Assembly: GCA_900299185.1 (NCBI GenBank)
Contig: OMIV01000143.1
Location: 6,688-70,687, forward strand
Source: Planctomycetaceae bacterium
GTDB lineage: Bacteria; Planctomycetota; Planctomycetia; Planctomycetales; Planctomycetaceae
Length of the DNA stretch: 64,000 nucleotides
Reading direction: 5' to 3'
Positions within the stretch are counted from its first letter, which is position 1. Every line of letters starts with the position of its first letter. A model generated the notes under the pieces. That model did no database searches, had not been told where the DNA came from, and saw only the letters and a program-made list of their open reading frames with translations. This document shows positions 1 to 36,300 of this stretch, in pieces. A program made the translations under genes and the position numbers.

Positions 1-359
1 TTCTCTGCGATCTCGTTCAACGCCGAATTCAAGTAGTACCAGTAGTCGTCCTTCGGCAGTGGCAGCGTCGAGTCCATAGCGGTCGTACTACGAGCGGCAT
101 CCAGCACGGTCTCAACCGCCACCGAGTTCAAGAAGATCTCTTGGCAACTCTTTTCGAGCACCGTGCGGATCAACAACTTGCCGTTGTGCACCGAGTTCAA
201 GGACACGTTGAGTCGATCCAGAAACTCTTTGCGTTTCCAAGCAGACTGAGCACGGCGCTTACCGATCCACCAACCCAAGGCCATCATCACGAGGCCCGAC
301 ACGAGCTTCGACCAGTTGCCTTCAATCAGGTTTTCAACGGCTTCAATCAACTCGTCCAT
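1..359 (-). CDS. hypothetical membrane-anchored protein, 5' part only (runs off left edge)
   Basis: My own minus-strand translation starts at ATG 359, 16 nt after the thyX stop. It gives MDELIEAVENLIEGNWSKLVSGLVMMALGWWIGKRRAQSAWKRKEFLDRLNVSL... and stays open to position 1. It has one hydrophobic helix (LVSGLVMMALGWWIG). It is absent from the ORF track because it is truncated. No family recognised. Confidence 0.5.
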   Translation of the reverse strand, partial: MDELIEAVENLIEGNWSKLVSGLVMMALGWWIGKRRAQSAWKRKEFLDRLNVSLNSVHNGKLLIRTVLEKSCQEIFLNSVAVETVLDAARSTTAMDSTLPLPKDDYWYYLNSALNEIAE

Positions 360-374
360 GCGATCCCTATCCGC

Positions 375-1310
375 TTACTTTTGGAGGATGCCGAGCTTCT
401 GCAGTTTGGCTTCGCATTCATCGCGCTCACGACTGCGAGACAGCCCGCGCCAAGTCTCGTCTTGCACTTCCAAGAACAAGTCCTTGTGAAACGGCGGCAC
501 CAGTCCGCGAGTTGCCGCCGCCGCCATCAGCTTTTGAATGGCTTCAATTTCAAGGCGACTCAATGAGTCGGACTGCATGCGGTAATCGAGGAACGCTTCC
601 CACACCATCGGGAACAGTGGCTTCAGGATCTGCTCGCCAATCGTTGTCGCGTACTGACGAATCTCAAGCTGCGCGTGCGAGTCCATCCGCAGAGCCAAGA
701 AGTGCAGCAAGTTGTGTAGGTCGATCTTCCAATAGGCTTCGGTGTAGGTCGACAACGGCAAGTCTTTACGAGCTTGCTCGCGCGCGACACCGCGTTCGAT
801 GCGCTCTTGATAGACGCGCCGCGCGAGTGCTTGCAGTTCGAGTTCCGAGGTCGTCAACGCATCGCCCTGACTCGCTTCCAACACGCCGTCGCTGCCTTGT
901 CGATTAGAAGCCGCCTGCACGCGCCATTGATCCGGCGGAGTCGTTTGAGCGCCGTCAATCGCCAGTGAGTACCGCGTTGAGTACTCGTTAACGCTGGCCG
1001 TGCGATGACGAATCCACTGCCGCCAGCAGTCCATCGGGACTCGGACCAGCAGTTTGATCTCAGCCATCTCGAACGGGGTCGTATGCCGATGTCGCAGCAG
1101 GTATCGAATGAGGCCCCGATCGTCCGAGACCTTCTTGGTGCCGGCGCCGTAGCTAACTCGCGCCGCTTGCACGACCGAACTATCGTTGCCCATCACATCA
1201 ACCAGGCAAACGAAGCCATCATCCAGCACCGGCAGCTTCTTCCAACGCAGCACCTCGACGATGTCTTGGCCATCCTGATTATCAGCCACCTGCGAGCTAT
1301 CAGCAGTCAT
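375..1310 (-). CDS. thyX: flavin-dependent thymidylate synthase ThyX
   Basis: 311-aa ORF with ATG at 1310 and TAA at 375-377. The ThyX signature RHRxxSxxxxSxRY is present as RHRTASVNEYSTRY. Confidence 0.93.
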   Translation of the reverse strand: MTADSSQVADNQDGQDIVEVLRWKKLPVLDDGFVCLVDVMGNDSSVVQAARVSYGAGTKKVSDDRGLIRYLLRHRHTTPFEMAEIKLLVRVPMDCWRQWIRHRTASVNEYSTRYSLAIDGAQTTPPDQWRVQAASNRQGSDGVLEASQGDALTTSELELQALARRVYQERIERGVAREQARKDLPLSTYTEAYWKIDLHNLLHFLALRMDSHAQLEIRQYATTIGEQILKPLFPMVWEAFLDYRMQSDSLSRLEIEAIQKLMAAAATRGLVPPFHKDLFLEVQDETWRGLSRSRERDECEAKLQKLGILQK

Positions 1311-1492
1311 TCCGTCACTCCGAAATCATGTCTAATGAGACCCCATCGAGCCTCGCGAATTGGGGGGCGGATCTTAGGACACGCCGAGACTTCATCCACT
1401 CCGGCGCTGGCTGTCGGGTGACTCGCAGCCGATTTGCTCGATGTGTGCGGGAAGTGAGCGCTTTGTTGAATGAGCCAGCCAAGCATTCCAGT

Positions 1493-1714
1493 CCCCCTCG
1501 CCCCACTGGGGAGAGGGGTTAGAGGTGAGGGGCAATCGCAATCCGAGCTCCTGAATTCAAAGGGTTGCGCCGTTCGATGACGGGCGTCTCATGATCGATC
1601 AGCCAACAACAGCCGACGCGCGGCGACTTGATGAATCGGCCGAGCTTGAAACTCCGAGCGTCTCGTTTGTTGCCCCTCAACCCCCGGCCCCTCTCCCCAT
1701 AGGGGCGAGGGGAG
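1493..1714. repeat. pair of ~45-nt inverted repeats (G/C-tract palindromic element) flanking ~135 nt; MITE/REP-like
   Basis: Arm 1 (1493-1535) is ccccctcgccccactggggagaggggttagaggtgaggggcaa. The reverse complement of 1670-1714 is ctcccctcgcccctatggggagaggggccgggggttgaggggcaa. Both share the block order cccctcgcccc-N3-ggggagagggg...gaggggcaa. Each arm is itself a hairpin (cccctcgcccc / ggggagagggg, one mismatch). Track ORFs 1328..1522 and 1591..1809 that cross the arms look non-coding. Confidence 0.7.
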
Positions 1715-2099
1715 ATTTTGCGGGACCAACAACTCGAGTCGAGAACCCGGTGGCTTTAGTCAGTCTCTTGACGGCTGACTTCTCAGAACGACCGAACTCA
1801 TGTCGCTGATACGGCGATCGGGACTCTTGTCGTCGAGCGGGCGTTGCTGTCGCTTGTGGCTGATGCGGCTCACGAGCTTTCTCAACGTGACTTGAGCTGC
1901 GTCGCCGACGGGCACCGTGTTTCGTTTTGGCAACGCCTCGGTGTGACCCTCATGGTTGCGAGTTCCTGTCGAATTGCTGTGCGCGCTGCTGTCGGAAGGG
2001 AACGACAACGGCGTCGGCCTTGATGCATTCGACCCAACGTTCGCGCGTCCGGCCTCTCTCCCCTCAGAGGCTGGAGGCGTGGCGGAAATCGGTTGGCCC

Positions 2100-3005
2100 A
2101 TGAAGCCGTCACGTTCAACTCACACGAACGTGCTGGCGACAGCGGCCCTTGTGTCGTTGTGCGTTGTCATGCTTACTACTTCTTGGCTTCGAAATCTGCG
2201 TTCCGTCCAGCGTCGTCGTCGAGCACGGCCGTCGTGTTCCGAGCGGCTGGAATCGCGCGAGCTACTCGCCGCAGCCGCCGTGTATGTCGATGGTTTGTGG
2301 ACCGGTCTGCCGGTGGGCACGGACCCCGATGGCAGCGGACCGGCTACGAGCATTGGCGTCGATGCGTTCGCAGACATCGCTTCGGGAATCGCGGCAGTGG
2401 CCGATACGGGGACCGTTAACATCCGACCGGGCACCTATGTTGAAGCCGTGCAGATCTCGAAGCCTCTAACGCTGCAAGGCACCTCTAATCCGTTGTCGGT
2501 CATCATCGCGCCGGGAGCAGGCTCGAACGGCGTGACCATTGCGTCGCCTCACGGAGCCGTCGCGCTGCGGAACTTCACGATCAGCGGCACTCAAACAGCG
2601 GTCGACGTCACGACGAACGACGATGTGCTACTCGACCTGCTGGTGGCTGACGACAACGCCGTCGGAGTGCATGTGGCTCAAGCGGATGACCTCACCATCA
2701 ACGACGGTCGGTACGCGGACATCAGCGTGCGATCCACCGACAGCGTCACGCTGCAAGGTTCGCGAATTAACTCGACCGGCAACATCGACATCGAAACTCA
2801 GAACGCGATCTCGGTCGGCACCACGATCGATGTAGGAGCCAGCACACTTCGATTCATCGCGAACCTCGACGGCTCGGACAACGAAGGCTTCTCGCAAGCC
2901 ATCAACACCACGATCAAGACCACCAACGATTCCATCGATGCCGTGCGCATCGAAGTCAACACGCTGTTGGGTGGCAACGGCGACGCCACGATTGGCCGCA
3001 TTTAA
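2100..3005 (+). CDS. giant exported protein A, N-terminal piece (leader plus parallel beta-helix-like region), ends at an in-frame TAA
   Basis: ATG at 2100 gives MKPSRSTHTNVLATAALVSLCVVMLTTSWLRNLRSVQRRRRARPSCSERLESRELLAAA: a hydrophobic segment, an Arg run and the LExxExRxLL motif. It is followed by pectin-lyase-fold-like sequence (VNIRPGTYVEAVQISKPLTLQG, FTISGTQTAVDV...). TAA at 3003-3005 is in the same frame as ORF 3117..6743. Confidence 0.65.
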   Translation: MKPSRSTHTNVLATAALVSLCVVMLTTSWLRNLRSVQRRRRARPSCSERLESRELLAAAAVYVDGLWTGLPVGTDPDGSGPATSIGVDAFADIASGIAAVADTGTVNIRPGTYVEAVQISKPLTLQGTSNPLSVIIAPGAGSNGVTIASPHGAVALRNFTISGTQTAVDVTTNDDVLLDLLVADDNAVGVHVAQADDLTINDGRYADISVRSTDSVTLQGSRINSTGNIDIETQNAISVGTTIDVGASTLRFIANLDGSDNEGFSQAINTTIKTTNDSIDAVRIEVNTLLGGNGDATIGRI

Positions 3006-3116
3006 ACCGGCACGACCGACGATCCTGCGGGCGGTCGAGTCACCATCATCGCTCGCAACGGAGCGATCGCCGACAGCAACAGCGACGACATCAATCTCAT
3101 TGCCAGCAGCGCGATC

Positions 3117-6100
3117 TTGCTGGCCAGTGCCGGCATCGGCTCGATCGGTGATCGGTTCGAAACGTCGTTGCATCGAGTCACCGCCTCTGGCGGTTACAAC
3201 GGGCTGACGTTGTTCAACGACATTGCTCTGACCATCGACGATCTCGTGCCCAACATCCCTGCCATCGGAGCGTTGTCAGGAGTGGTGCAGGTCTCATCGC
3301 CGCGTTCCATCACCGTCGCTGGCGACATCATCAGCAAACGCGTGCTGCTGAAGTGTGACGAAAATTACGGGTACTCGGAGCTGCGGATTAAGTCGGGCGC
3401 CGCCGTGCGAGCGCTGTCTGGAAACGTCGAACTCGTCAGCGGCGACGACATCGCCTTGGAAGCAGGATCGTTGGTCGAATCGCTCACGGGCGGCGTCTAT
3501 CTCAAAGGCGATGACGGCAACTTCGACTTCGGCGTCGGTACGTCGATCTCCATTGATGGCCTCATCAACTCGGCGATTGGAACGCGAGCCGAAGGCAACA
3601 CCGACAAGGATGTGATCTCGGTTTCCCAGCTCGGCACGGGCGGACTGGTACTCGACGGCCTCGGTCGCGATGACCGTTACGTCGTCACCTACCCAAGCTT
3701 GCCCGCGACATTCGGCAGCACGCTGACCGTGCAAGATTCGGATACCGGCAACGATCAGCTCATAGTGAATGGCTCGGATGACTCCGACGAATTCTTCTTC
3801 ACAACGACTGATCCGCCGACGTCCATCGAGACCGAACAACTGACGCGCGGTAACTCGACCGCCGAGCGCATCATCATCGACGACAGCATCAACGGGCTGA
3901 CGATCAACACCGGCGAAGGCGCGGACATCGTGCATGTGCAGCCGACGTTTCTCTTCCCTGTCACCGTCAATGGCGGCGAGCCTTGCTTCGAGGACATCGG
4001 TTCGGAAAACGGCGACACGCTCGACTTCAACCCGCTCGGCAACGACTTCTCGATCAACGGCAACACGCTGCGAGCCGTCGGTAAGGATGGCATCTATCAA
4101 CCGATCAAGTTCCTCGACATCGAGAATCTGCCGCTGGATCCAGTTGGCACCGGCGAGACGCTGAAGTTCGACTTCAATCACACCAACACTGCGTCTTCGG
4201 TGCAGGAGTCTCCGACCGAGTCCGGCTACATCGGCGTGCGAGCAGGCACGCTGTACTCCGATGGTTTGGGCTATGGCTGGCAGGAGAAAGTCAGCAGCTT
4301 CGAACGAAACGACGGCTTCTATCTGGGACCGCAAAAGTTCTTACTGCAAGACGGTCACTCGCTGGGGCGACAAGCCACCTTCACCATCGATGTGCCCACG
4401 CCGGGCTATTACTCCGTCGGTGCGCTGATGGGGAATCCTTACAGCGACATGGCCGATGTCATGATCAAGAACGGCGACTCCAGCCAAGTGCTCGTCGACC
4501 ACATCACCTCGACCGCCGGGCATTCCACCGACGTTGAATTCGTCATCTATGTGCCGGACACCACGCTCGATCTGCGCTTCATCAATTCGCTGACGAACCC
4601 TGCTCTGCTGGGTCTCAACGCTCTCGAAGTCCGACCTGCCGAGATCCTCACGATGGGCTTGGATTCGTGCGACGCGCGGTACGTTGCCGACGGTGTGACG
4701 ACCGACACCTTGACGCTCTCGCATGCTCCCGCGAATTCCTACATCACCGTGTCGATCGATCTTGGCACGCTGGTGACAACTGACGCCGACCGCGAGATCT
4801 CCGGTGTGCAAGTTCTGACAGATGAAGAAGGCACGGCGACGATCCAAGTGCGGCGTCCGTTTGGCGGAGGCACGGCCACCGTCGAACTCGACGACGTGCG
4901 CGGCCTCGCAACAGGAGTGGCCGCGATCGAGTACGTGCTGCCCCAAGCTCGCAACTTCGACTTCAACCATGTGAATCGAGAATCAGCCGCGATCCCCTCG
5001 CCCACGATGACTCCAGTGGTCTCGCCGTCGAACCCAACCGGCTTCATCGGCGTGCTGCCCACGGACCTTTACACCGAGTCGCGCGGTTATGGTTGGCAGC
5101 TTCAACCTGGCAGCTTTGATGACTACGAGATCCCACAGGATTCTCGCTCGAACCTGCAGCGCGATGGTCACTTCGGTTCGTTCGCCGATGCCTTCACGGT
5201 CGACCTGCCCAACGATGTCTACGACGTGCGTTTGACGATGGGTTACAGCAAAGCGACGGACGCGATGTCCGTGCGAGCCAACGGAATGATGGTCGTTTCG
5301 AACGAAGACACTCTGCCCTTCGAGTACTTCCAAGCGTCGTTCCGCACGGAAGTCAGCAACGGGCAACTGCTGCTGGAGTTTGGTGACGGCGGCTTGATTC
5401 CGAACTGGGTTATCAACGGCTTAGAGATCCGCTCGACGACGATGGTTTCGCCGATCACGTTCACTCAACCGTTGGGCGACGTGGCAGCCAATGGGCGAGA
5501 AGTTCGCACGATTCACGCGACGTCAGACCTAGCTGCCGGTCAGCTCGTGACGGTCTCGACCACGCTGGGGACAGTTATCACCAGCGACGCCGACGCTCGT
5601 TTGGAAGGCGTCCAAGTTCCGGTCGGCACCGGCGGTGCGATCGCCTTTGATGTCCGTGCTCAGCAGCTATCCGGTACGCCGCGAGTTCGCATCGAGTCGA
5701 TCGATGGTCTGCATCAGGGCGAGATCAAGTCGAGCAGTTACCTGCGCTATGTCATCGATCAAGTGCGACGGTTCGACTTCAACCACATCGCGGGCTTCAC
5801 CGTGACTCCTACCGAGCCCGGCTTCATTGGCGTCAATCGGCTCGATACGGACGCCGAGCATGTCGGCTTCGGATTTGTGACGACGCCGAATTCGACCGAC
5901 TTCAGTGTCGCCACGCCGGATGACGCGGGTGATCTGACCAAAATTTCGAAGTCGAGCGTCGCTCCGTACCGCGATGGCATCTCCGGTCACTTCACGCTCG
6001 GCAGCCGCATCTTCCAAGTCGAAGCCAAGCCGGGAGTCGACTACGACATTCGCGTCTTCACCGGGCATCCCTTCCACGATCAAGCCACGCAGTCGAATGC

Positions 6101-6743
6101 CGAAGGAGTCGCCGGTTCCAAGTCCGTCACGACCCAAGCCGGGTTCTTCTCGTCGCTGACGTTCTTGGGCGCACACGACACCAATGGCGACGGCTTCATT
6201 GATATCTCGTTCGGCAACGCCGGTGGCATCTCACCGTTGTGGATCGTCACGGGACTTGATGTTGCGGAATCGTCGACCGGTCTGCCTCCAGCCGCACCGC
6301 TGCTGCCTGAGGCTGGAGATGCGGTGCCAACTGGCACCATGCCGACAACGCTATCGATTACTCAACTGCAAGCCGCTCGCACGATCGCCATCAACGCTTG
6401 GGCAGCAACGGGTCTGAGTTCCGCCGAGCTAGCGCGACTCAATGCGACGACGATCACGATCTCGAATCTGGATGCCGTCGGAGCACTCGGCCTAGCTGGC
6501 TCTCGAACGATCGTGATCGACGACGACGCAGCGGGCTTCGGTTGGCACACGACGACTGACGCGCCGGCTGCGAACCGCTTTGACTTGCTCACCGTCGTCG
6601 CGCACGAGCTTGGTCACATCATCGGTCGCAGCGATCTTGATCCCGGACTGTTTGCGAACGACTTGATGGCCGGATCGCTCGGACTGGGCACGCGACACTC
6701 GCAACTGGCCGCCATCGACGACTTCTTTGCTGGGCAGATTTAG
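3117..6743 (+). CDS. giant exported protein A, main body (beta-helix repeats, 3 lectin-like modules, C-terminal metzincin-motif tail); frame open from 3006, true start unclear
   Basis: 1208 codons; the track start is TTG 3117 and there is no nearby in-frame ATG. Contains the segment FFFTTTDPPTSIETEQLTRG. Three tandem modules of ~265 aa open with FDFNH...GY/FIGV...GYGW (or GFGF) at nt ~4161, ~4950 and ~5766. The tail is DDDAAGFGWHTT...LLTVVAHELGHIIGRSD...DLMAG, with HELGH at 6603-6617. Confidence 0.75.
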   Translation: MLASAGIGSIGDRFETSLHRVTASGGYNGLTLFNDIALTIDDLVPNIPAIGALSGVVQVSSPRSITVAGDIISKRVLLKCDENYGYSELRIKSGAAVRALSGNVELVSGDDIALEAGSLVESLTGGVYLKGDDGNFDFGVGTSISIDGLINSAIGTRAEGNTDKDVISVSQLGTGGLVLDGLGRDDRYVVTYPSLPATFGSTLTVQDSDTGNDQLIVNGSDDSDEFFFTTTDPPTSIETEQLTRGNSTAERIIIDDSINGLTINTGEGADIVHVQPTFLFPVTVNGGEPCFEDIGSENGDTLDFNPLGNDFSINGNTLRAVGKDGIYQPIKFLDIENLPLDPVGTGETLKFDFNHTNTASSVQESPTESGYIGVRAGTLYSDGLGYGWQEKVSSFERNDGFYLGPQKFLLQDGHSLGRQATFTIDVPTPGYYSVGALMGNPYSDMADVMIKNGDSSQVLVDHITSTAGHSTDVEFVIYVPDTTLDLRFINSLTNPALLGLNALEVRPAEILTMGLDSCDARYVADGVTTDTLTLSHAPANSYITVSIDLGTLVTTDADREISGVQVLTDEEGTATIQVRRPFGGGTATVELDDVRGLATGVAAIEYVLPQARNFDFNHVNRESAAIPSPTMTPVVSPSNPTGFIGVLPTDLYTESRGYGWQLQPGSFDDYEIPQDSRSNLQRDGHFGSFADAFTVDLPNDVYDVRLTMGYSKATDAMSVRANGMMVVSNEDTLPFEYFQASFRTEVSNGQLLLEFGDGGLIPNWVINGLEIRSTTMVSPITFTQPLGDVAANGREVRTIHATSDLAAGQLVTVSTTLGTVITSDADARLEGVQVPVGTGGAIAFDVRAQQLSGTPRVRIESIDGLHQGEIKSSSYLRYVIDQVRRFDFNHIAGFTVTPTEPGFIGVNRLDTDAEHVGFGFVTTPNSTDFSVATPDDAGDLTKISKSSVAPYRDGISGHFTLGSRIFQVEAKPGVDYDIRVFTGHPFHDQATQSNAEGVAGSKSVTTQAGFFSSLTFLGAHDTNGDGFIDISFGNAGGISPLWIVTGLDVAESSTGLPPAAPLLPEAGDAVPTGTMPTTLSITQLQAARTIAINAWAATGLSSAELARLNATTITISNLDAVGALGLAGSRTIVIDDDAAGFGWHTTTDAPAANRFDLLTVVAHELGHIIGRSDLDPGLFANDLMAGSLGLGTRHSQLAAIDDFFAGQI

Positions 6744-6861
6744 GAGCGAATCGAGAAGTCATTCCGAACTAAGGATGACAGGCACTGGGTGCTCGAAGAG
6801 CGTAGCAACTGAAACATCCACGCCCTTCCCGTTGGTCAGAGCGTGCCGCGCAAAAGATGTT

Positions 6862-6887
6862 CTCGTTCCCAGGCTCTTGGGAACGAG
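6862..6887. terminator. hairpin ctcgttccc-N8-gggaacgag in convergent gap (repeat family R3)
   Basis: Perfect 9-bp stem (6862-6870 / 6879-6887) with loop aggctctt. Lies between the stop of giant A (6743) and the stop of the minus-strand gene at 7010. The same stem core recurs at 29956-29996. Confidence 0.5.
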
Positions 6888-6889
6888 TT

Positions 6890-6990
6890 GGCAGAATTCG
6901 AGTTGCCCATCTCAGTCGCGGAGCGACTGAGCTACGTAGGCGAGTCGCTCCGCGACTCGCTGAAATCGAAATCCAACGATTGAAGACGCA
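6890..6990 (+). repeat. palindromic intergenic repeat family R2, copy 1
   Basis: Core is ctcagtcgcggagcgactgagctacgtaggcgagtcgctccgcgactcgctgaaatcgaaatcc (6911-6974). It contains nested palindromes: gagcgact/agtcgctc around ctacgtag, and cgagtcg/cgactcg. About 85% identical by eye to 48511-48574. Matches 56512-56575 in reverse orientation. Confidence 0.8.
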
Positions 6991-7009
6991 CTCGCTCTCC
7001 AGCAGTCCG

Positions 7010-9043
7010 TCATTTCGCTCGAGCTTCAGCTCGTTGCTGCCAAGCCCAGCGATACAAGTTACGGGTGTCGGCGTAGCGAGCTTTCGATGACGCACAGCCC
7101 AACACCACGAGCATCAAGCGGTCGTCGCCGCGAGCGGCTTGAGACACCAAGCACGCTCCGGCAGCGTCGGTCGTACCAGTCTTCAGGCCTTCATAGCCTT
7201 CGATGTCGAGTAGCTCGTTGGTGTTCTTCCATTTGAGGTTCCGCTGATAGCCGCCCGGTCCCGTGACTTGGCAACCATGCTGTCGGGTCTGAGCGATCTC
7301 CTTCAGCAACGGAATCTGCATCGCTTCCCAACCGAGCTTCAGCAGGTCTCTCGCACTGCTTTGATGACCGGTCTCAGTCAGACCATGCGGGTTCTTGTAA
7401 CGCGTCTCGGACATCCCCAGGGACGTCGCGGTGCGGTTCATCTCAGCCACAAACGGAAGCATGGGATCGGGAGTCTTGCTGTTCGACTTCTTCTCTTTGC
7501 CATTCTCCGCGCGAGCAAACCGAGGCCCGAAATGCTCGGCCAGTGCGACAGCCGCGTCGTTGCCCGAGGGCAGCAGCAAGCCATACAGCAGCTCGCGAAC
7601 GGGTAACTTCTCACCGGCCGTCACACCCGACGTTGTGCCCGTCGTGCGGTCGGCTCGTTTCGAAAACGTCACGACTTCATCCAAGACTTTGGCATCCTTG
7701 GAAGCCAACCGAGCGACCACAAACGCCGTCATGATCTTGGTGGTGCTCGCGAAATCGAGCGGATCTGTTTCATGGTCCGACCACAGCAACTGGCCGGTGC
7801 GAGCATCCCCGATGGCCCAGGCTTTGGCAGTGACGTAGGGCTGACCCGTCAGAGCATCAGCAGGCTGCTTGGGCTGCACTTCCGCGTTGATCTTGGCGGG
7901 TTCAGGCACAGGCTCGGGGTCACTCGATAACGGACCAAGCACCTTCCACGTCGCTTCTTCGACCACGCCGTTTGCCGTGAGCTTGTTCTCCTTTTGCAGC
8001 TTCAACACAGCGCTGTGAGTCGCCGGACCAAACTCGCCATCAACCATCAGATCGGGCGAGGGCTTCAATTGACGATTGAGCGCGCGTTGCAGCAATTCAA
8101 CTTGAGCCCAGCTGTCGCCTTGCTTAAGCGGTTCGTTCTTCGTCGGTGGTTCTTTCCATTGATCGTTGAAGTAGAAGAAGACTTCGCGAGCCAACCGCGA
8201 GCACAACATGCTGCCCGCATCGTCGTCCGCCCAACGACGATCCGAGTTGTTGCGAGTGAGCACACACATCGCGATCGGTCCCGCTTCCGATTCGATGATG
8301 CCAGCATCACAGCGAACCGCCGTCACCGCGCCGGTCTTATGAGCCAACTTGATCCCTTCCGGCAGCAGCCGCGCGAGCATCGTTTTGTCCTGACAAGCTC
8401 GCAGATGGTCGAGCATTTCGTCGCTGGCCGATTTCGAAACCAACTCGCGTCGTTGTAACAGTTCCAACAGCTTGATCATCTCGCGCGCCGTCGTGCTTCC
8501 CAGCCCGTACTTCTTGCTACGTTCCGGGAAGATCGAGGTATCGCCACGAAAGACTTTCGCGTGCAGCTTGGTCTCTTTGAGTCCCAGCGATTCCATGCGT
8601 TTGCCAACGGACGCCAATTCGATCTTGTCGACAACCAGGTTGGTCGCGGTGTTGTCCGAGTACGCGATCATCAGTCGAACGGCATCACGAATCGATAACT
8701 GCAAACCGGCAGAGAAGTGAGCCGTCAAAATGCCCGAACCCTGCACCTTGTCATCGTCGCGCAGCTTGATGACATCGCTTAACGCGAACTTGCCCGCAGC
8801 CGCTTGCTGATAGGCTTCAACCATCACAGCCAACTTAATCAGACTGGCCGTCGGCATGACTTCATCAGCGTGATGCTCGAACGATTCAGCCGACTCCAGA
8901 TGCTTCACCATTACCGCGACATCGCCCTGATGTCGTTCGATGATCGGCAAGAGCTTTTCATTGAGCCCCTCTGCGGCTAGCACCAGGGACGTCGAAACCA
9001 AAACCCACGCCGCGATGAAGCACGGCAACGATCGAAATGTCAT
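7010..9043 (-). CDS. secreted fusion protein: class A beta-lactamase-like serine hydrolase, PG-binding domain and S11 D-alanyl-D-alanine carboxypeptidase
   Basis: 677 aa with signal peptide MTFRSLPCFIAAWVLVSTSLVLAAEG. The N-terminal domain has S67-LIK, S129-DN and K236-TG, close to Ambler positions. The middle has a PG_binding_1-like motif, DGEFGPATHSAVLKLQKENKLTANGVVEEATWKVL. The C-terminal domain has S433-TTK, SGND and KTGTT, typical of peptidase S11. Confidence 0.85.
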   Translation of the reverse strand: MTFRSLPCFIAAWVLVSTSLVLAAEGLNEKLLPIIERHQGDVAVMVKHLESAESFEHHADEVMPTASLIKLAVMVEAYQQAAAGKFALSDVIKLRDDDKVQGSGILTAHFSAGLQLSIRDAVRLMIAYSDNTATNLVVDKIELASVGKRMESLGLKETKLHAKVFRGDTSIFPERSKKYGLGSTTAREMIKLLELLQRRELVSKSASDEMLDHLRACQDKTMLARLLPEGIKLAHKTGAVTAVRCDAGIIESEAGPIAMCVLTRNNSDRRWADDDAGSMLCSRLAREVFFYFNDQWKEPPTKNEPLKQGDSWAQVELLQRALNRQLKPSPDLMVDGEFGPATHSAVLKLQKENKLTANGVVEEATWKVLGPLSSDPEPVPEPAKINAEVQPKQPADALTGQPYVTAKAWAIGDARTGQLLWSDHETDPLDFASTTKIMTAFVVARLASKDAKVLDEVVTFSKRADRTTGTTSGVTAGEKLPVRELLYGLLLPSGNDAAVALAEHFGPRFARAENGKEKKSNSKTPDPMLPFVAEMNRTATSLGMSETRYKNPHGLTETGHQSSARDLLKLGWEAMQIPLLKEIAQTRQHGCQVTGPGGYQRNLKWKNTNELLDIEGYEGLKTGTTDAAGACLVSQAARGDDRLMLVVLGCASSKARYADTRNLYRWAWQQRAEARAK

Positions 9044-9212
9044 CGGAAGTCCTCGAGAGAATACGAAGTCGGCGGCAAGCTAAGATCGCACCGACTCAGA
9101 GGGAACTCACACTCCCCAACAGTGGGAAGCACTCCAGGGCGCGCTGGTCGCTGCGGGTTGGTCGCGATACGGTCTCGGAAGTCAGCTCAGTTGCCTGTGT
9201 TGTGAGGTTGTC

Positions 9213-10625
9213 ATGTCCGTCGTCCCGTTTGCGTTCAATCGTCGAACCTTCTTGAACTCTGCCGCTGCGGGTATCGGTGGGATCGCTCTGCAAGCGCTGC
9301 TGGCCGAGGCTCAAGCGGAGTCATCGCATCGAGGTGGTGCCACTCATCACCAGCCCACGGCGAAGTCTTTGGTGTGCCTCTTCCAACATGGAGGACCAAG
9401 CCAATGTGACCTCTTCGACGAAAAGCCATTGCTCTCGAAGTATCACGGCAAGCCCTATCCGGCTGGTGAGCTCGAGATCCACTTCGACAAGCAAAAAGGC
9501 AACGTGCTCGGTTCGCCCTACGCCTTTCGAAAGTTCGGCGAGTGCGGAATGCCGCTCAGCCAACTGTTGCCGCATACGGGCTCGATCGCAGACGACATCA
9601 CGCTCGTTCGCAGCATGTGGACCGAGTCCGTCGATCATGAGTCCGCGTTGCGTTTGATCCACACCGGTAAGTTCTTGGCCGGGCTGCCGACAATGGGTTC
9701 GTGGCTGGCGTATGCCTTGGGCACCGAGAACCGCAACCTGCCGACCTACGTGGTGCTTTCTGACCCCGGGGGCTTGCCCGTTGATGGTGAGAAGAATTGG
9801 ACGTCAGGCTTCTTGCCGCCGGTCTATCAAGGCACCGTGTTTCGATCGGGTAGCAATCCCGTTCTGCATCTGGCGACGCCGTCTGGGATTTCGAAGGACG
9901 CTCGGACGCGACAACTCCAGTTGCTCGACCGACTGAACCGCGATCACTTGCTGAGATTCCCCGGACATGAAGAACTCGAAGCACGCATTACCAACTTCGA
10001 GATCGCGGCCAACATGCAAACCGCAGTGCCCGAAGCGCTGGACCTCGCACAAGAGACGGCAGCAACGCAAAAGCTTTACGGGCTCGATAACCCGGCGACC
10101 GAGGAATACGGACGACGTTGCTTGATCACGCGGCGGCTGATTGAACGAGGAGTCCGTTTCGTGCAGCTCTTCCTCAACGGCCAACCATGGGACACTCACA
10201 GCAAGAACGCCGAGAGCTTGAAGGGCTTGTGTGCTCGCACCGATCAGCCCAGCGCGGCCTTGGTTAAAGACCTGCAGCAACGCGGACTGCTTAATGACAC
10301 CATCGTGCTGTGGACCGGCGAGTTCGGTCGGCTGCCGGTTTCTCAAGGAGCTGACGGCCGCGACCACGACCGCCATGCCTTCTCGTTGTGGCTGGCTGGA
10401 GGTGGTTTCAAAGCGGGCCACATGCACGGAGCGACGGACGACTTTGGCTACAAGTCGGTCGAGCAAAAGGTGTCGGTGCATGACCTGCATGCCACGCTGT
10501 TGCATGCGCTGGGTCTCGACCACGAGCGTCTGACGTACCCTCACGAAGGTCGCGACGCGAGCCTCTCTGACACTGAAGTTACGGGAGCGAAAGTGGTCTC
10601 GGAGTTATTGGCTCACGGGACGTAG
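9213..10625 (+). CDS. DUF1501 family (sulfatase-fold) protein with twin-arginine leader
   Basis: 470 aa. TAT motif FNRRTFLNSAAAGIGGIALQALLAEA. DUF1501 hallmarks QHGGPSQCDLFDEKP and WTGEFGRLPVSQGADGRDHDRHAFS. Confidence 0.88.
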   Translation: MSVVPFAFNRRTFLNSAAAGIGGIALQALLAEAQAESSHRGGATHHQPTAKSLVCLFQHGGPSQCDLFDEKPLLSKYHGKPYPAGELEIHFDKQKGNVLGSPYAFRKFGECGMPLSQLLPHTGSIADDITLVRSMWTESVDHESALRLIHTGKFLAGLPTMGSWLAYALGTENRNLPTYVVLSDPGGLPVDGEKNWTSGFLPPVYQGTVFRSGSNPVLHLATPSGISKDARTRQLQLLDRLNRDHLLRFPGHEELEARITNFEIAANMQTAVPEALDLAQETAATQKLYGLDNPATEEYGRRCLITRRLIERGVRFVQLFLNGQPWDTHSKNAESLKGLCARTDQPSAALVKDLQQRGLLNDTIVLWTGEFGRLPVSQGADGRDHDRHAFSLWLAGGGFKAGHMHGATDDFGYKSVEQKVSVHDLHATLLHALGLDHERLTYPHEGRDASLSDTEVTGAKVVSELLAHGT

Positions 10626-10657
10626 CAGGCTGTGAACGCGCCGCTCTGATCAAGACT

Positions 10658-10723
10658 CTCTGCGTTCTCTGCTCCTCTGTGGTGTCGTTTTTCTGTCACC
10701 GCAGAGGAGCAAAGAACGCTGAG
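10658..10723. terminator. long bidirectional hairpin between convergent DUF1501 gene and rpoD
   Basis: Left arm is ctctgcgttctctgctcctctgtggtg (10658-10684). The reverse complement of 10697-10723 is ctcagcgttctttgctcctctgcggtg, so 27 nt pair with 3 mismatches. The loop is T-rich (tcgtttttctgt). Confidence 0.65.
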
Positions 10724-10756
10724 ATGTAACTCGACCTTGCGGGTCTCAAGCACTGC

Positions 10757-12406
10757 TTAATTGACTGCGGCAAGTGATTCGAGGAAGCCCTTCAACTGCG
10801 TGCTGCGAACCGGGTGTTGCAGCTTGCGGACGGCCTTGGCCTCGATCTGCCGCACTCGTTCGCGAGTCACCTTGAAGATGCGTCCGACTTCTTCAAGCGT
10901 GTAGGTGTAGCCGTCACCCAAGCCGTAACGCAGCTTGATGATTTCTTGCTCGCGGAACGTCAGCGTGCTGAGCACGTCGTCGATCTTGCCCTTCAGCATG
11001 TCTTGAGCAGCCGAAGCCACCGGCGTGTCCGTGCTGGTATCTTTCAGAAACTCGCCGAAGCTAGCATCGCCGCTTTCACCGACAGGACGATCGAGGCTGA
11101 CGGGCTGACGACCGATCGCCAACGCTCGCTTGGCTTCTTCGATTGGCAGGTTGGCTGCCTGTGCGAGTTCTTCCACAGTGGGTTCACGTCCCAGATCATG
11201 CAGCAAGTCCAGCGAGACGCTGCGCAGTTTCGACATCGTCTCGATCATGTGAACCGGGATGCGAATCGTGCGCGCTTGATCGGAGATCGCTCGCGTAATC
11301 GCCTGCCGAATCCACCATGTTGCGTAGGTCGAAAACTTATAGCCGCGTCGGTACTCGAACTTCTCGACAGCTCGCATCAAGCCCGTGTTGCCCTCTTGAA
11401 TGAGGTCCAAAAAGCTCATACCACGATTGCGATACTTCTTGGCGATCGACACGACCAATCGCAGGTTGGCTGCGGAGAGATCGCGCATCGCTTGCTCGTA
11501 GTCGAAGAAGCGAGACTTCACGCGCTTCACTCGTTCGCGCAACGACGCGGGTGTTTCGAGCGTCGTAATCATCAGATCGCGCAGCTCGTTTTGAATCGCG
11601 GCTTTGTCGCTGTTGCCCACATCGAACGTGCGAATGCGGTTTAGTCGCTGTTCGAGTTCCGTCATGCGTTCGGAGATTTGCTCTAACCGCTTCATGACCG
11701 GCTGCAAGCGCTGCGTGCGAATGCTGAGTTCTTCAACCAGCGTGACCATCTTCAAACGCTTGAACTTCAACATGCGATCGCGTTCGCGCCGTTCTTCAGG
11801 AGCGATCGAGTTATTGAGAATCAGTTGCTCGGCCTCGGCGACGTATTGAGTGCGCAGCTTTTCGAGCGTCTGCAAGTTGAGCGGCATGCGACCGAGGATC
11901 TGCTGCTTCTCCAGCCCTTCGGTTTGCGATGTCTTGATCGTGCGATCAAACGGCAACTCGTTGGCCGCGACCTTGGTCAACACGTCGATGGTGGCTCGCA
12001 TGGCGAAGTCGCATTCAAGCAACTCGCGACGGAAGCGCCGGCGAGTGACTTCGATGCGCTTCGACATCGAGATCTCTTCCGCGCGCGTCAGCAATGGGAT
12101 CTCGCCCATTTGCGCCAAGTACATCTTCACCGGATCTGAAGTGCGCTTGCGGTTGTCTTCGAGTTCGACGTCTTCTTTGCGAACCTTCGTGCGAGCGACC
12201 TTCTGTCGCGATTGCAGCTCTTCTTCGGAAGAGTCCAACGCGATGATGTCCAGACTTAGTTCTTCCACATACATCAGCAGATTGTCGAGCTTCTCGGGAG
12301 TGGTCGCCTCGTCCGGCAGATAGTTATTGACCTGCGAGAACGTGAGGTAGCCCTGCTCTTGGCCCTGTGCGATGAGATCTTGAAGAGTTTCATCGACGAC
12401 TTGCAT
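10757..12406 (-). CDS. rpoD: primary RNA polymerase sigma factor (sigma-70, RpoD/SigA)
   Basis: 549 aa. Region 2 [29 protein letters not shown] and region 4 [30 protein letters not shown] at 12406 follows AAGGA. Lies 21 nt downstream of dnaG. Confidence 0.95.
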
Positions 12407-12427
12407 GAGCTGTCCTTTCGCTGAGAG

Positions 12428-14302: not shown

Positions 14303-14460
14303 CGAATACGACTCCCAAAAGTGAGGCTGACCAGCAGGCTGAGTGATACCGAGAAATGCGGCCCTAATTGCAACGAGCAATCAAACGCGAGCGTGTTCGG
14401 GACGGTGATGATCTCTGCATAGAGTCGAGACAACCAGCAGGGACTGTCACGTCAAATAAC

Positions 14461-32573: not shown

Positions 32574-33251
32574 ATGAAACTTCGCAACTGGCTGGCCCGC
32601 GCTGTTCGTCCGGTAGTCTCTTCCCGCCTCAACAACGCCACCCAATCGCGTCGCTCTACATACCTATCGCGCCGCCTCACCGCCGCCACTCTCGAAACTC
32701 TGGAAGATCGCGCCTTGCTGTCGTCGATCTCGGCCAGCCTCGTGAACGGCGACTTAACAATCAGCGATTCAGACGCGACCGGTAAGAACAACTTCCTCTC
32801 GGTCAGTGTGAGCGGCTCGAACCTCGTTGTTTCAGACTCCTTTGAAACATTTATTGCGGCTCCGTCCGGTGGGGTGCTCAGCAATGGAAACACGACGTTG
32901 ACGATTCCGCTGGCCTCAGTGACCGGCACATTGACCATTGATGGGGGCAAGGGCACAGACAACATCTCGATCAACGCGCTCAATGGTTTGCTGGGCGGAC
33001 TGTCGGTCAATGGTGGCGAAGGCGATGACTCCGTCACGTTTAATGGAGACATCACATTCGCGACGAACGCCAGTCTCGATGTTGATCTTCAGAACGATGC
33101 TGCCACACCCGGAGTGGACCAAGTCACCGTCAATAACGATGCGAATCTGGTGCTATCTGGCACCGGGCCGGCGACGATGAAGGTCAGCAAGAGCATTCAA
33201 TTTAATCCGGGGTCGAGCCTCATCACGGCAAACGGCAACCTCACACTCTAA
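32574..33251 (+). CDS. giant exported protein B, N-terminal piece (leader plus beta-helix-like region), ends at an in-frame TAA
   Basis: ATG at 32574 gives MKLRNWLARAVRPVVSSRLNNATQSRRSTYLSRRLTAATLETLEDRALLSS. It continues with LTISDSDATGKNNFLSVSVSGSNLVVSD...GGKGTDNISINALNG...NGGEGDDSVTFNGD. TAA at 33249-33251 is in the same frame as ORF 33321..39281. Confidence 0.65.
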   Translation: MKLRNWLARAVRPVVSSRLNNATQSRRSTYLSRRLTAATLETLEDRALLSSISASLVNGDLTISDSDATGKNNFLSVSVSGSNLVVSDSFETFIAAPSGGVLSNGNTTLTIPLASVTGTLTIDGGKGTDNISINALNGLLGGLSVNGGEGDDSVTFNGDITFATNASLDVDLQNDAATPGVDQVTVNNDANLVLSGTGPATMKVSKSIQFNPGSSLITANGNLTL

Positions 33252-33320
33252 GCCAATCAACAAGCTGTCGCGTCGACCGGTGAGTTCGGCGGCATTCGAC
33301 TTGATAACTCCACGATCGCG

Positions 33321-36300
33321 GTGACGGGCACGGGCACGTTGTCGATGGCCGGCACGGGTGGCAGTGTGGGACGTGGAACGCTCGGAATTGAGGTACGCGG
33401 CGGCAGCACTGTTTCAGGCGGGACGACGGGAACGATGACGCTCGTCGGGCACGGTGGAGCGACAACCGATACCGACTCGCAAGGTATTCATGTGCGCGAC
33501 GGAATCGTCACTTCGCTCGGCGCGAACGTCAGTCTCACTGGCTTTGGTGGCAATGCAGGTTCGGGAACCGCGTTGGGGGTGCTCGTGAATCGGAACTCGA
33601 CAGAGACGAAAGTCACGGCCGGCGGTTCGGGCAATGTGACCGTGATCGGCACGGGTGGCTCAGGCAGCGGCAATTTGAATGTTGGAGTCGCAGTTGCTGG
33701 AGGCATTATTACATCCAGTGGCGGCAATGTGACCGTCACTGGCATAGGCAGTGGGAACGCGTCCGGGAAATTGAATATCGGTGTCGGTGTTGTGGGCGGG
33801 ACCATCGAAGCAACGGGCTCGGGCACGCTGACGGTGACGGGAACCGGCGGGGCGGGAGCAGCGGCTCACGGAATCGACTTCAACATCACCGGCGCATTTG
33901 GAACTCCACCCGCGAATATCTCGACTGTGAATGGCACTCTCAGCGTGATTGGCACTCCAGGAGCGGGCGATGGTTCGTTCGGCATCAACTTGTGGAAGAA
34001 CGGCACGATTTCAACCACGGGTACTGGCAATGCATCGCTCAAGACGGACAGCCTCGAAATCGACGTTTCAGACACACCAGGCACGATCAACGTCGGTGCC
34101 AATGCGATCAAGATCGTCCCAGCGACCAATGGAGTGACGCTCGACCTATCTTCAGCCGAATATGCTCGCATCTCGGCGGGCAGAATTCTCTACAACGGCA
34201 CAATCGACGGTAAGACGCCGACGTCGAATCCGACAGTCGATCTTTCCGTGAGCACCAATGCAGCCTCTGAATCCGGCCAGACAAAAGTGACCGTGACAGC
34301 AACGGCTTCTGCGGCGGTCAGTGGCGATCAAACCGTGACGGTGGGAGTCAGTGGCAGCGGAATTACATCGAACGATTACACGTTGTCGGGGACGACGATC
34401 ACCATCCCCAGCGGCAAGCAATCGGGCAGTGTGACATTCACGGTGCAAGACGACTCAGAGAACGAAGGCTCCGAGACCGCAACGATCTCGATCTCGAATC
34501 CGTCATCAGGCGTAACGCTCGGTAAGAGCAAGTCTCAAAACGTCGTCATCACAGACAACGATGGTCCGACCTCGGTCGATATACCGCAAACCGGAACCGG
34601 GCCGGTCACGATGAAGTTGGTTGGCGGTAACATCGTCATTACTCAAGACGGCAAGACGTTGGCGCAGATCCCAGCGTCCGATCAGCCCCTTCAAATCAAC
34701 GGCACTGCGGCTAACGATGACGTCTTCATCCTCGACCTCTCTGGCGGCGATCCGACTCCAACAGGCGGGCTGATTTTCAACGGCGGAGCAGGCGGCAATG
34801 ACGTGTTGCGAATTGTCGGCACAGGCCAAGACGCCACGTATTCGCCGGATAGTTTCGTCACCGGCAATGGCGTCATCGAGGTCAACGGTAAGACGATCAC
34901 GTTCGTCGGGCTCGAACCCGTCGACATGTTCGGCTTCGGTACTGTCACACTCAATCTGCCTAACGGAGACGACATCCTCACGGTGACGAATGATGTCGAC
35001 TTCACATTCGGCGGAATGAACCCTGCCATTCGAGTTGCTGGTACGTCCGGCGGTGTGGCTATTGAGACGGTTGCCATCTGGAGCGGTTCCACGCTCGTCA
35101 TCGATACCACTCTGAACTCAGATGGCGACGATAGCATCACGATCAACGGCGCCGATCTGACCGCCGCCAACATCTCGAATCTGACGATCAATACGGGTTC
35201 CGGATCGGATGCCATCGCCATCAATGGTGATGTGACTCTCGACGGCAACTTGGCCATGACCACCGCGGCAGGAGCGATCACTCAAGCAGGCTCAGCCGTC
35301 AGTGTCGGCGGGACGACCACCATCAATACCGGGTCGGCGGACATTGCACTTACCAGCGCAACGAATGACTTCGTTGGCCCTGTCACTCTGACCGGCGCGA
35401 ACATTTCGATCGCCGATGCCAACGACATGACGCTGACCAGCGTCACCGCGTCAGGCGACGTCTTGGTAACAACCGACGACGCACTCACATTGATCGGCAC
35501 GATCAACGCGGGTGATGGCACCATCACGCTCAACGTGAATACGGACGGAGCAGGGGCCGACGACTTCACCATGCTGCCTGGCTCAGTCATCACGACGTTG
35601 AATAGCACCTCGGACGCGGTTGTCATCACGGTTAATAACTTGGGTGGTGGCACAGGCGACGCCATCATCCAACTCATCACTACGGCCAAAGACTGCGGCC
35701 CGACGCTTGGTCGAGTCACCATTGATGCCAACGGCGGAGCAGTTGTCGACGGCAACGCGGGATCGGTGAACGTGGTCTCTGGAGCCACGATTCTGCTCGG
35801 CCAAGAAGGTGTCGGTTCGGCGATCGATACGTTCGATACCGAAGTCGGCATGACCGAAGGCGTCGGTGGTTCGGGCGGCTTCTATGTGCTGAACACCGGC
35901 AATCTGACAGTTGGTGGATTGAGCGCCACGATCGGCATCTCGACCACCACCGGAGACATCGATCTCCGAACGACGGGCTCGCTGACTGTTACGGAAGATG
36001 TCGACTCGACCGGAGCAACCGGCAACATCTTGTTGAGTGCCATCGAGAGCGCTGGATTCGGCAGCGACCTGACGATCAACGACAATCTCTCGATCAGCTC
36101 GCCAGGCGGCAGCATTCAATTGCTGGGCGGCGACAACGTCACGATTGGAACGGGCGGCTCAATCTCAGCACCGACCGGCAGCATCACCATTAGCGGAGAC
36201 AGCGGCGATCTCGATCCCGATGGAGCAAAACTGACAGTTGCCGCGCAGCTTGTGTCTGGCTTGGGAACCGCGATCAACGGCGGCAACGACAACGACAAGT

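What the first reader, a model, noticed from the sequence alone, without database searches (positions are those of the whole stretch)
2100..6743. Giant gene A is one continuous 1546-codon frame interrupted by a single in-frame TAA
Track ORFs 1956..3005 and 3117..6743 share a frame. I translated the 111 nt between them (3006-3116) and found no stop. The protein reads straight through the TAA at 3003-3005: ...NGDATIGRI*TGTTDDPAGGRVTIIARNGAIADSNSDDINLIASSAILLASAGIGSIGDRF... The beta-helix-like character is the same on both sides. The export leader (hydrophobic NVLATAALVSLCVVMLTT, an Arg run, LESRELL) exists only on the 301-codon upstream piece. The 1208-codon downstream piece has no nearby in-frame ATG (the track start is TTG 3117) and no leader of its own. 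There is no frameshift or second stop anywhere in 4.6 kb, which is unlike an old, decaying pseudogene.
Basis: seen in the sequence. Interest (0 to 1): 0.65.

Follow-up and report, generated by a model that had tools for sequence, protein, structure and literature searches.

The report
Recent nonsense mutation splits large gene
A large secreted-protein gene of a freshwater planctomycete carries a real premature TAA stop where three related organisms have ordinary sense codons, so it is most likely a very young broken gene, which is an ordinary event.

Summary
ORFs 1956..3005 and 3117..6743 share a frame and are separated only by TAA 3003-3005. The stop is derived, not conserved. Three uninterrupted orthologues read CAG (Gln), CTC (Leu) and ATC (Ile) at that column, and an in-window paralogue reads Ile. 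TAA is the commonest genuine terminator in the window, so the code is not reassigned. No RNA structure follows the stop. The same TAA appears in every near-identical assembly I could reach (99.95-99.98% identity), which argues against an assembly error. dN/dS is 0.07-0.10 on both sides. The window lineage shows no excess amino-acid change downstream (27 vs 27). The lesion is therefore very young, under about 0.007 substitutions per site, and the lack of a second lesion is expected. The 'hydrophobic leader' probably lies in a conserved structured 5' leader (1970-2099). The gene ends with TAG. The paralogue at 32574..39281 carries its own independent in-frame TAA (33249) at a non-homologous position, which suggests loss of the shared function in this population. 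Verdict: a young nonsense pseudogene or null allele, of low interest.

The parts
1970..2099 (+). Conserved, probably structured, non-coding 5' leader upstream of the gene. It overlaps the 5' end of track ORF 1956..3005.
   Evidence: The block is conserved in all four orthologous loci, even though dS exceeds 1 in the coding part. L003 has an insertion of about 130 nt between this block and the ATG, so it is not coding. RNAalifold predicts 36 pairs, 5 with compensatory changes, including a hairpin of about 19 bp. The block is unique in the window.
2100..2102 (+). It is probably not the start.
   Evidence: This codon is AAG in L001. In L003 the frame is closed 13 codons upstream of the equivalent region.
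2169..2171 (+). Probable true start codon (MLTTSWLRNLRSVQRRRRARPSCSERLESRELLAAA...).
   Evidence: It is the only start codon conserved in the window, L001, L003 and L004. The same N-terminal pattern (M..S/N-W..R, Arg-rich, LE.R.LL) begins gene C and the 1850-aa protein at 28021(-).
2169..3002 (+). Upstream coding piece of 278 codons: Arg-rich leader with LESRELL, then the first part of a beta-helix-like repeat region.
   Evidence: There is a weak NosD-like hit at nt 2385-2711 (TIGR04247, E 7.7e-8, below its cutoff). Omega against L001 is 0.098.
3003..3005 (+). Premature in-frame TAA, a lineage-specific nonsense codon.
   Evidence: The aligned codons are CAG (L001), CTC (L003) and ATC (L004). 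Paralogue C has Ile here. The same TAA is in L002, which is 99.98% identical. ORFs bounded by it are called on at least 3-4 further contigs.
3006..6740 (+). Downstream 1245 codons, now cut off from the start and leader. They hold the rest of the repeat region, three FDFNH-initiated modules (nt 4167, 4956, 5772) of which only one matches Pfam AGA-YXIM_GBD, and a C-terminal HExxHxxGxxD domain.
   Evidence: PF21254 scores 51.1 bits against a cutoff of 27, at nt 5037-5429. YxiM (2o14) matches at E 4e-8. HELGHIIGRSD lies at nt 6603-6635. Omega is 0.071, and lineage-specific amino-acid changes are 27 vs 27.
3117..3119 (+). TTG, the first possible restart codon, 37 codons after the stop. A product starting here would have no leader.
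   Evidence: No Shine-Dalgarno-like sequence is visible upstream in the sequence.
6741..6743 (+). Genuine terminator of the gene (TAG).
32574..39281 (+). Paralogue 'gene C', which has its own independent in-frame TAA at 33249-33251. It consists of 225 codons, the stop, then 2009 codons.
   Evidence: Residues 130-1521 of A align with residues 864-2232 of C at 35% identity, so the two stops are at non-homologous positions. The same TAA is in L005, which differs by 6 SNPs in 11.8 kb. Remote homologues are collinear across the junction. The 225-aa module lies inside or at the N-terminus of proteins of 1000-5373 aa.

Best explanation
Gene A encodes one large exported multidomain protein of about 1524 aa. 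It has an Arg-rich LE.R.LL leader, a beta-helix-like region, three FDFNH-initiated modules (one matching the galactose-binding-like AGA-YXIM_GBD family) separated by spacer segments, and a C-terminal HExxHxxGxxD zinc-peptidase-like domain. In this population a sense codon, most simply CAA (Gln) changed by one C-to-T transition, became TAA at codon 279. Translation from ATG 2169 now stops inside the repeat region and yields a 278-aa fragment. The remaining 1245 codons are no longer made as part of an exported protein, apart from trace near-cognate readthrough or leaderless reinitiation at TTG 3117. The event is so recent that the downstream sequence has had no time to decay. It is therefore a young pseudogene or null allele, not a recoding device. 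A paralogue 30 kb away was hit independently by another TAA, which suggests that the family's shared function has become dispensable or disadvantageous in this lineage. Shown: the stop exists, it is derived, it is reproducible across assemblies, and purifying selection acted on both halves until very recently. Inferred: loss of function, the ancestral codon, and the reason for the parallel hit.
For: The orthologues are uninterrupted. P0006/L001 reads GRIQTGTTDD with CAG. L003 is a 1528-aa ORF with CTC. L004 has ATC. Paralogue C aligns straight through the stop column with Ile. The TAA is present in L002, which differs by 2 SNPs in 11.7 kb. ORFs bounded by it are called on further contigs, including a 101.6-kb scaffold. 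TAA ends 10 of the 25 other ORFs, including thyX, dnaG and rpoD. Omega between the window and L001 is 0.098 upstream and 0.071 downstream, with dS about 0.6. Polarised changes downstream are 27 vs 27 non-synonymous and 96 vs 95 synonymous. That bounds neutral evolution since the stop to under about 0.0074 substitutions per site, where only about 0.7 further stops are expected. The other genes in the window give full-length family matches, so the sequence is not generally degraded.
Against: No reads were available, so allele frequency and base-call support were not tested. The concordant assemblies may all come from one sample or project (SRR1514963 / SAMN02905733) and so may not be independent. 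There is no positive sign of relaxed selection downstream, which fits a functional gene as well as it fits a very young pseudogene. Two paralogues each carrying exactly one TAA in the 5' part is a coincidence that a regulated mechanism would also explain.
Confidence: 0.8

Rival explanations
1. The TAA is read through or suppressed, either by design or conditionally (leaky termination or a UAA-suppressor tRNA). In that case a small, regulated amount of the costly full-length protein is still exported, and the paralogue is controlled in the same way.
For: Both halves show strong purifying selection and no extra lesions. Two paralogues each carry one in-frame TAA early in the gene.
Against: The stop is absent from all three orthologues, and the column is a variable sense position (Q/L/I). 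UAA is the main genuine terminator in the window. From general knowledge, UAA is the least leaky stop in bacteria. No structure lies downstream (z = +0.36). No tRNA is in the window. The two stops are at non-homologous positions. The lack of decay is expected at the bounded age.
Confidence: 0.05
2. The TAA is an assembly, consensus or base-call artefact, and the real genome has a sense codon.
For: The window appears to come from a metagenome assembly. No reads could be inspected. The concordant assemblies may share the same reads.
Against: The same TAA appears in assemblies from different pipelines that differ from the window by SNPs elsewhere. The local sequence is not a homopolymer or a repeat. 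A C-to-T change that survives consensus in several assemblies is unlikely. The rest of the window is clean.
Confidence: 0.05
3. The stop allele is one of two co-existing alleles in the population, null and intact. The assemblies report only the majority allele, so the gene is still functional in part of the population.
For: Assemblies of this population differ by SNPs at about 2-5 per 10 kb, so it is not clonal. Surface-protein genes are often polymorphic for null alleles (general knowledge).
Against: No intact allele of this species is in the 15-billion-protein collection. The 90% cluster holds only stop-bounded ORFs plus the 87%-identical orthologue. All reachable contigs carry the TAA.
Confidence: 0.08
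4. The split is functional. A short secreted N-terminal protein and a separate 1208-aa protein started at TTG 3117 now act as two genes.
For: Gene callers annotate two ORFs.
Against: The orthologues and the paralogue are single genes, and conserved sequence runs through the 37 codons between the stop and TTG (omega 0.08-0.3). The downstream piece has no leader. No ATG lies nearby.
Confidence: 0.02

Closest known systems
Bacterial pseudogenes created by a single nonsense mutation (young, unitary pseudogenes or null alleles; reviewed in PMC11078800, found and not read in detail)
   Same: There is one premature stop inside an otherwise intact reading frame. The orthologues are intact. The stop is lineage-specific. 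There are no other lesions yet.
   Different: Loss of expression has not been shown here. There is no detectable relaxation of selection, which means the event is very recent. A paralogue was hit in parallel.
Large and 'giant' surface-protein genes of Planctomycetes (Reva & Tuemmler threshold of 5 kb, as cited in Kohn et al. 2016, PMC5177795)
   Same: It is a planctomycete gene for a long, repetitive, presumably exported protein. It lies among housekeeping genes, and several other very long genes are in the same window.
   Different: Gene A is 4.57 kb from ATG 2169 and so falls just under the 5-kb threshold. Gene C is 6.7 kb and exceeds it. Interruption by stops is not a described property of these genes.
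Programmed stop-codon readthrough or recoding (selenocysteine at UGA, pyrrolysine at UAG, leaky UGA in bacteria; general knowledge)
   Same: There is an in-frame stop with coding sequence on both sides.
   Different: The codon is UAA. It is not conserved in orthologues. There is no recoding signal or downstream structure. UAA is used as the normal terminator nearby.
YxiM / beta-agarase galactose-binding-like domain (Pfam PF21254; PDB 2o14)
   Same: The region at nt 5037-5429 matches above the Pfam cutoff. Gene C carries the same domain.
   Different: Here the module sits in a much larger beta-helix and HExxH architecture of unknown function. No esterase or agarase catalytic domain was detected.

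Membership tests
Nonsense-mutation pseudogene / null allele | The stop codon lies inside sequence that is homologous, on both sides, to one uninterrupted gene in relatives | tested here: met
   L001, L003 and L004 are collinear and uninterrupted, with CAG, CTC and ATC at the column. The paralogue has Ile there.
Nonsense-mutation pseudogene / null allele | The stop is real in the genome, not an error | tested here: inconclusive
   It is present in all reachable assemblies, L002 and further contigs. The reads could not be examined, and the assemblies may share a sample.
Nonsense-mutation pseudogene / null allele | Relaxed selection or further lesions downstream of the stop | tested here: not met
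   Lineage-specific amino-acid changes are 27 vs 27, there is no second stop or frameshift, and omega is 0.071. This is expected if the stop is younger than about 0.007 substitutions per site, so it dates the event and does not exclude membership.
Nonsense-mutation pseudogene / null allele | Loss of the full-length product | not testable with these tools
   This needs proteomics, Ribo-seq or a reporter assay.
Programmed stop-codon readthrough | The stop codon is conserved at the same position in orthologues | tested here: not met
   All three orthologues have sense codons.
Programmed stop-codon readthrough | A leaky stop, a favourable context, or a stimulatory downstream RNA structure | tested here: not met
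   The stop and context are UAA-A. The fold of 2994-3120 gives z = +0.36 against shuffles. No Rfam match reaches its gathering score.
Stop-codon reassignment (alternative genetic code) | The codon is not used as a terminator by ordinary genes of the genome | tested here: not met
   TAA ends 10 of the 25 other ORFs in the window, including thyX, dnaG and rpoD.
Stop-codon reassignment (alternative genetic code) | A cognate suppressor tRNA with anticodon UUA | not testable with these tools
   The window holds no tRNA. The rest of the genome was not available.
AGA-YXIM_GBD (PF21254) domain-containing proteins | A match above the Pfam gathering score | tested here: met
   The score is 51.1 bits against a cutoff of 27, at residues 678-808 of the downstream piece. 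PDB 2o14 matches at E 4.4e-8.
Right-handed parallel beta-helix (NosD / Beta_helix) | A family-level HMM match or a confident beta-helix model across the junction | tested here: inconclusive
   TIGR04247 scores 31 bits against a cutoff of 300. There is no Pfam hit. The AF2 single-sequence model of the orthologue's N-terminal 627 aa has pLDDT 43.5 and is unusable.
Metzincin-like zinc peptidase (NF038122 / Peptidase_M10) | A zinc-binding motif and a family HMM match above the cutoff | tested here: inconclusive
   HELGHIIGRSD (HExxHxxGxxD) is present at nt 6603-6635. NF038122 scores only 27.6 bits against a cutoff of 80. In gene C, Matrixin scores 20.8 against 24.
Planctomycete 'giant genes' (>5 kb) | Gene length above 5 kb | tested here: not met
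   2169..6743 is 4575 nt, and 4644 nt from ATG 2100. The threshold is taken from PMC5177795. Gene C, at 6708 nt, meets it.

The most novel reading that the evidence does not exclude
Two paralogous, very costly surface-protein genes are each gated by one early in-frame UAA. They would be expressed only at low level, or only under some conditions, through UAA suppression or readthrough. That would be a translational throttle not described in Planctomycetes.
Probability: 0.04. Interest if true: 0.75.

Novelty: new member of a known kind. Interest (0 to 1): 0.17.

Why it matters
For annotation, the two ORFs should be merged and flagged as one gene with an internal stop, starting at ATG 2169 and not at the upstream TTG or ATG. 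For biology, it is a small, dated example of very recent gene inactivation in a free-living freshwater planctomycete. Two paralogues were knocked out independently, which fits selection against, or loss of need for, a particular surface structure. It does not point to a new mechanism.

Tried and rejected
1. Genetic-code reassignment was rejected, because TAA is the commonest true terminator in the window.
2. A readthrough signal was not found. No downstream structure exists, no Rfam family reaches its threshold in 1300-3300, and no tRNA is in the window.
3. Structure prediction across the junction failed. The orthologue's first 627 aa, folded without an alignment, gave pLDDT 43.5 and was unusable, so no fold search was run.
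4. PDB sequence search with the upstream piece found nothing.
5. The first word-based protein search was nearly empty, probably because repeats saturated it. The orthologue came from the cluster listing instead.
6. Look-ups of several window proteins for more assemblies returned nothing on record.
7. The genome and metagenome scans each returned only one orthologous locus.
8. I asked whether the two TAAs sit at homologous positions, which would point to gene conversion or a common signal. They do not, and there is no DNA similarity around them.
9. No close orthologue of gene C was found, so its ancestral codon is unknown.

Full report
**1. Observation.**
- ATG 2100 opens a frame that ends at TAA 3003-3005.
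- The same frame continues without a stop to 6740.
- The junction reads ...NGDATIGRI*TGTTDDPAGGRVTIIARNG...
- The first possible start after the stop is TTG 3117.
- An open frame of 1245 codons is far beyond chance at this composition (P about 6e-20). The longest open frame in 20 shuffles was 342 codons.
- The genuine terminator of the gene is TAG 6741-6743.

**2. One gene or two?** The 90%-identity cluster of the downstream ORF holds a 1493-aa protein from a Logan assembly (P0006).
- Its contig, L001, is about 87% identical in DNA to the window and is uninterrupted. The codon aligned with the TAA is CAG, and the protein reads GRIQTGTTDD.
- A GTDB MAG of an uncultured Planctomycetaceae bacterium (L003) has a 1528-aa uninterrupted ORF with CTC at that column.
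- A JGI metagenome contig (L004) has ATC there.
- Gene A also has a paralogue in the window, gene C (32574..39281). Residues 130-1521 of A align with residues 864-2232 of C at 35% identity. The alignment runs straight through A's stop column, where C has Ile.

The two ORFs are therefore one gene. The stop column is an ordinary, variable sense position (Q/L/I), and the TAA is derived in the window's lineage. The simplest path is CAA to TAA by one C-to-T transition (inference).

**3. Is the stop real?** L002 is an ENA assembly of the freshwater metagenome SRR1514963 (PRJNA254927). One paper describes that project as freshwater (PMC8407206).
- L002 is 99.98% identical to window 1..11743, with 2 SNPs, and carries the same TAA.
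- The stop-bounded downstream ORF (P0004) is on 4 contigs, including a 101.6-kb scaffold.
- The stop-bounded upstream ORF is on at least 3 contigs.
- No intact allele of this species is in the collection.
- The sequence around the stop is not repetitive.

The assemblies may share reads, so this excludes an assembler artefact but does not replace a read pile-up.

**4. Recoding?**
- TAA ends 10 of the 25 other ORFs in the window, including thyX, dnaG and rpoD. The codon is therefore a terminator in this organism.
- The fourth base after the stop is A, which is unremarkable.
- The 127 nt from the stop onward fold no better than shuffles (z = +0.36).
- Rfam finds nothing above threshold.
- The window holds no tRNA.
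- The stop is not conserved, so programmed readthrough fails its main criterion.

**5. Age of the lesion.**
- Codon alignments of the four orthologues give omega = 0.098 upstream and 0.071 downstream for window vs L001, with dS about 0.6.
- I polarised changes with L003 and L004 as outgroups. Downstream of the stop the window lineage has 27 amino-acid changes against 27 in L001, and 96 synonymous changes against 95.
- At most about 2.7% of the branch can therefore have been neutral, which is under about 0.0074 substitutions per site. Over that span only about 0.7 further stops would be expected.
- Diversity among the assemblies is 2-5 SNPs per 10 kb, which is far lower.

'No second lesion in 4.6 kb' is thus what a young nonsense allele predicts. 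It is not evidence that the gene is kept whole.

**6. Start and leader.**
- ATG 2100 is AAG in L001.
- In L003 the frame is closed just upstream, and about 130 nt are inserted there.
- The only start conserved in all four loci is ATG 2169, giving MLTTSWLRNLRSVQRRRRARPSCSERLESRELLAAA...
- Gene C (MKLRNWLARAV...LETLEDRALLSS) and the 1850-aa RTX protein at 28021(-) ([10 protein letters not shown]...[12 protein letters not shown]) begin in the same way.
- The block 1970-2099 is conserved in all four loci. RNAalifold predicts a long hairpin for it with compensatory changes.

**7. What the protein is.**
- The N-terminal region is beta-helix-like. The NosD-like match is weak and below its cutoff.
- Three FDFNH-initiated modules follow. 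One of them matches Pfam AGA-YXIM_GBD above the cutoff and matches YxiM, PDB 2o14.
- The C-terminal domain carries HELGHIIGRSD, an HExxHxxGxxD motif. It resembles a metzincin-type site, but the family HMM scores are below cutoff.
- It is best described as a large exported, probably glycan-binding surface or extracellular protein. Its precise function is unknown.
- At 4.57 kb it is just under the 5-kb 'giant gene' threshold used for Planctomycetes (PMC5177795).

**8. The parallel case.**
- Gene C has its own in-frame TAA at 33249-33251. A 225-codon leader-bearing piece precedes it and 2009 open codons follow.
- The same TAA is in L005, a 101.6-kb scaffold that differs by 6 SNPs in 11.8 kb. The same two-ORF split (225 aa plus 1978 aa) is called on the L006 contig, whose DNA I did not compare.
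- Remote homologues align collinearly across the junction.
- In the exhaustive search the 225-aa module sits inside or at the N-terminus of proteins of 1000-5373 aa. A minority of shorter hits (roughly 120-500 aa) are also listed, and they may be fragments cut by contig ends.
- The two stops are at non-homologous positions with no local DNA similarity, so they are independent events.
- The other genes in the window give full-length family matches, so there is no general decay.

Two independent knock-outs of the only two members of this family in the window suggest that the shared function was lost, or selected against, in this population. This is inference.

**9. Verdict.** This is a real, lineage-specific premature stop in a single large gene. 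It is most likely a very young nonsense pseudogene or null allele (confidence about 0.8). Rival readings are an artefact (0.05), readthrough or suppression (0.05), a segregating polymorphism with an intact allele (0.08) and a functional split (0.02). The kind of event is well known, and interest is low.

Noticed in passing
window 32574-39281 (+), TAA at 33249-33251: A second large gene, a paralogue of gene A, is also cut by a single in-frame TAA. The junction reads ...ITANGNLTL*ANQQAVAS..., with a 225-codon leader-bearing piece upstream and 2009 open codons downstream. The same stop is in another assembly (L005), and the same split is called in a third (L006). Homologues span the junction.
   Followed up: yes
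window 1970-2099 (+): A block of about 130 nt upstream of gene A is conserved in all four orthologous loci although synonymous sites are saturated. A long hairpin is predicted (CGGCCTC..TCCCCTC..GAGGCTG and extension) with 5 compensatory pairs, followed by GGAGG. It has no Rfam match and is unique in the window. It may be a cis-regulatory leader RNA.
   Followed up: partly
window 2169 (+), 32574 (+), 28021 (-): Three large exported proteins share an N-terminal pattern: M-x2-3-(S/N)-W-x-R, an Arg-rich stretch, then LE.LE.R.LL(A/S). It looks like a lineage-typical export or sorting leader. I did not test it against any described signal family.
   Followed up: partly
window 2169-3002 (+): Upstream of the stop the window lineage has 14 lineage-specific amino-acid changes against 3 in L001 (binomial p = 0.013), although synonymous counts are equal (18 vs 18). 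The changes are mostly conservative (S to T/N, V to L/I). This is unexplained.
   Followed up: no
window 10757-14380 (-): dnaG and rpoD are adjacent in the same frame and separated only by TAA plus 7 codons. rpoD has its own ATG, so these are ordinary neighbouring genes and not a split gene.
   Followed up: yes
window 22469-28021 (-): A 1850-aa protein combines a proprotein-convertase P-domain, SdrD-B-like domains, a lysyl-oxidase domain and about 15 RTX repeats. This is an unusual domain mix and the gene is intact.
   Followed up: no
L003 about 1700-1830: In the L003 orthologue about 130 nt are inserted between the conserved leader element and the conserved ATG.
   Followed up: no
proteins P0179 (246 aa) and P0073 (248 aa): Two short stand-alone relatives of gene C's 225-aa N-terminal piece have a similar length. 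They could be further truncated copies in other organisms, or fragments at contig ends.
   Followed up: no
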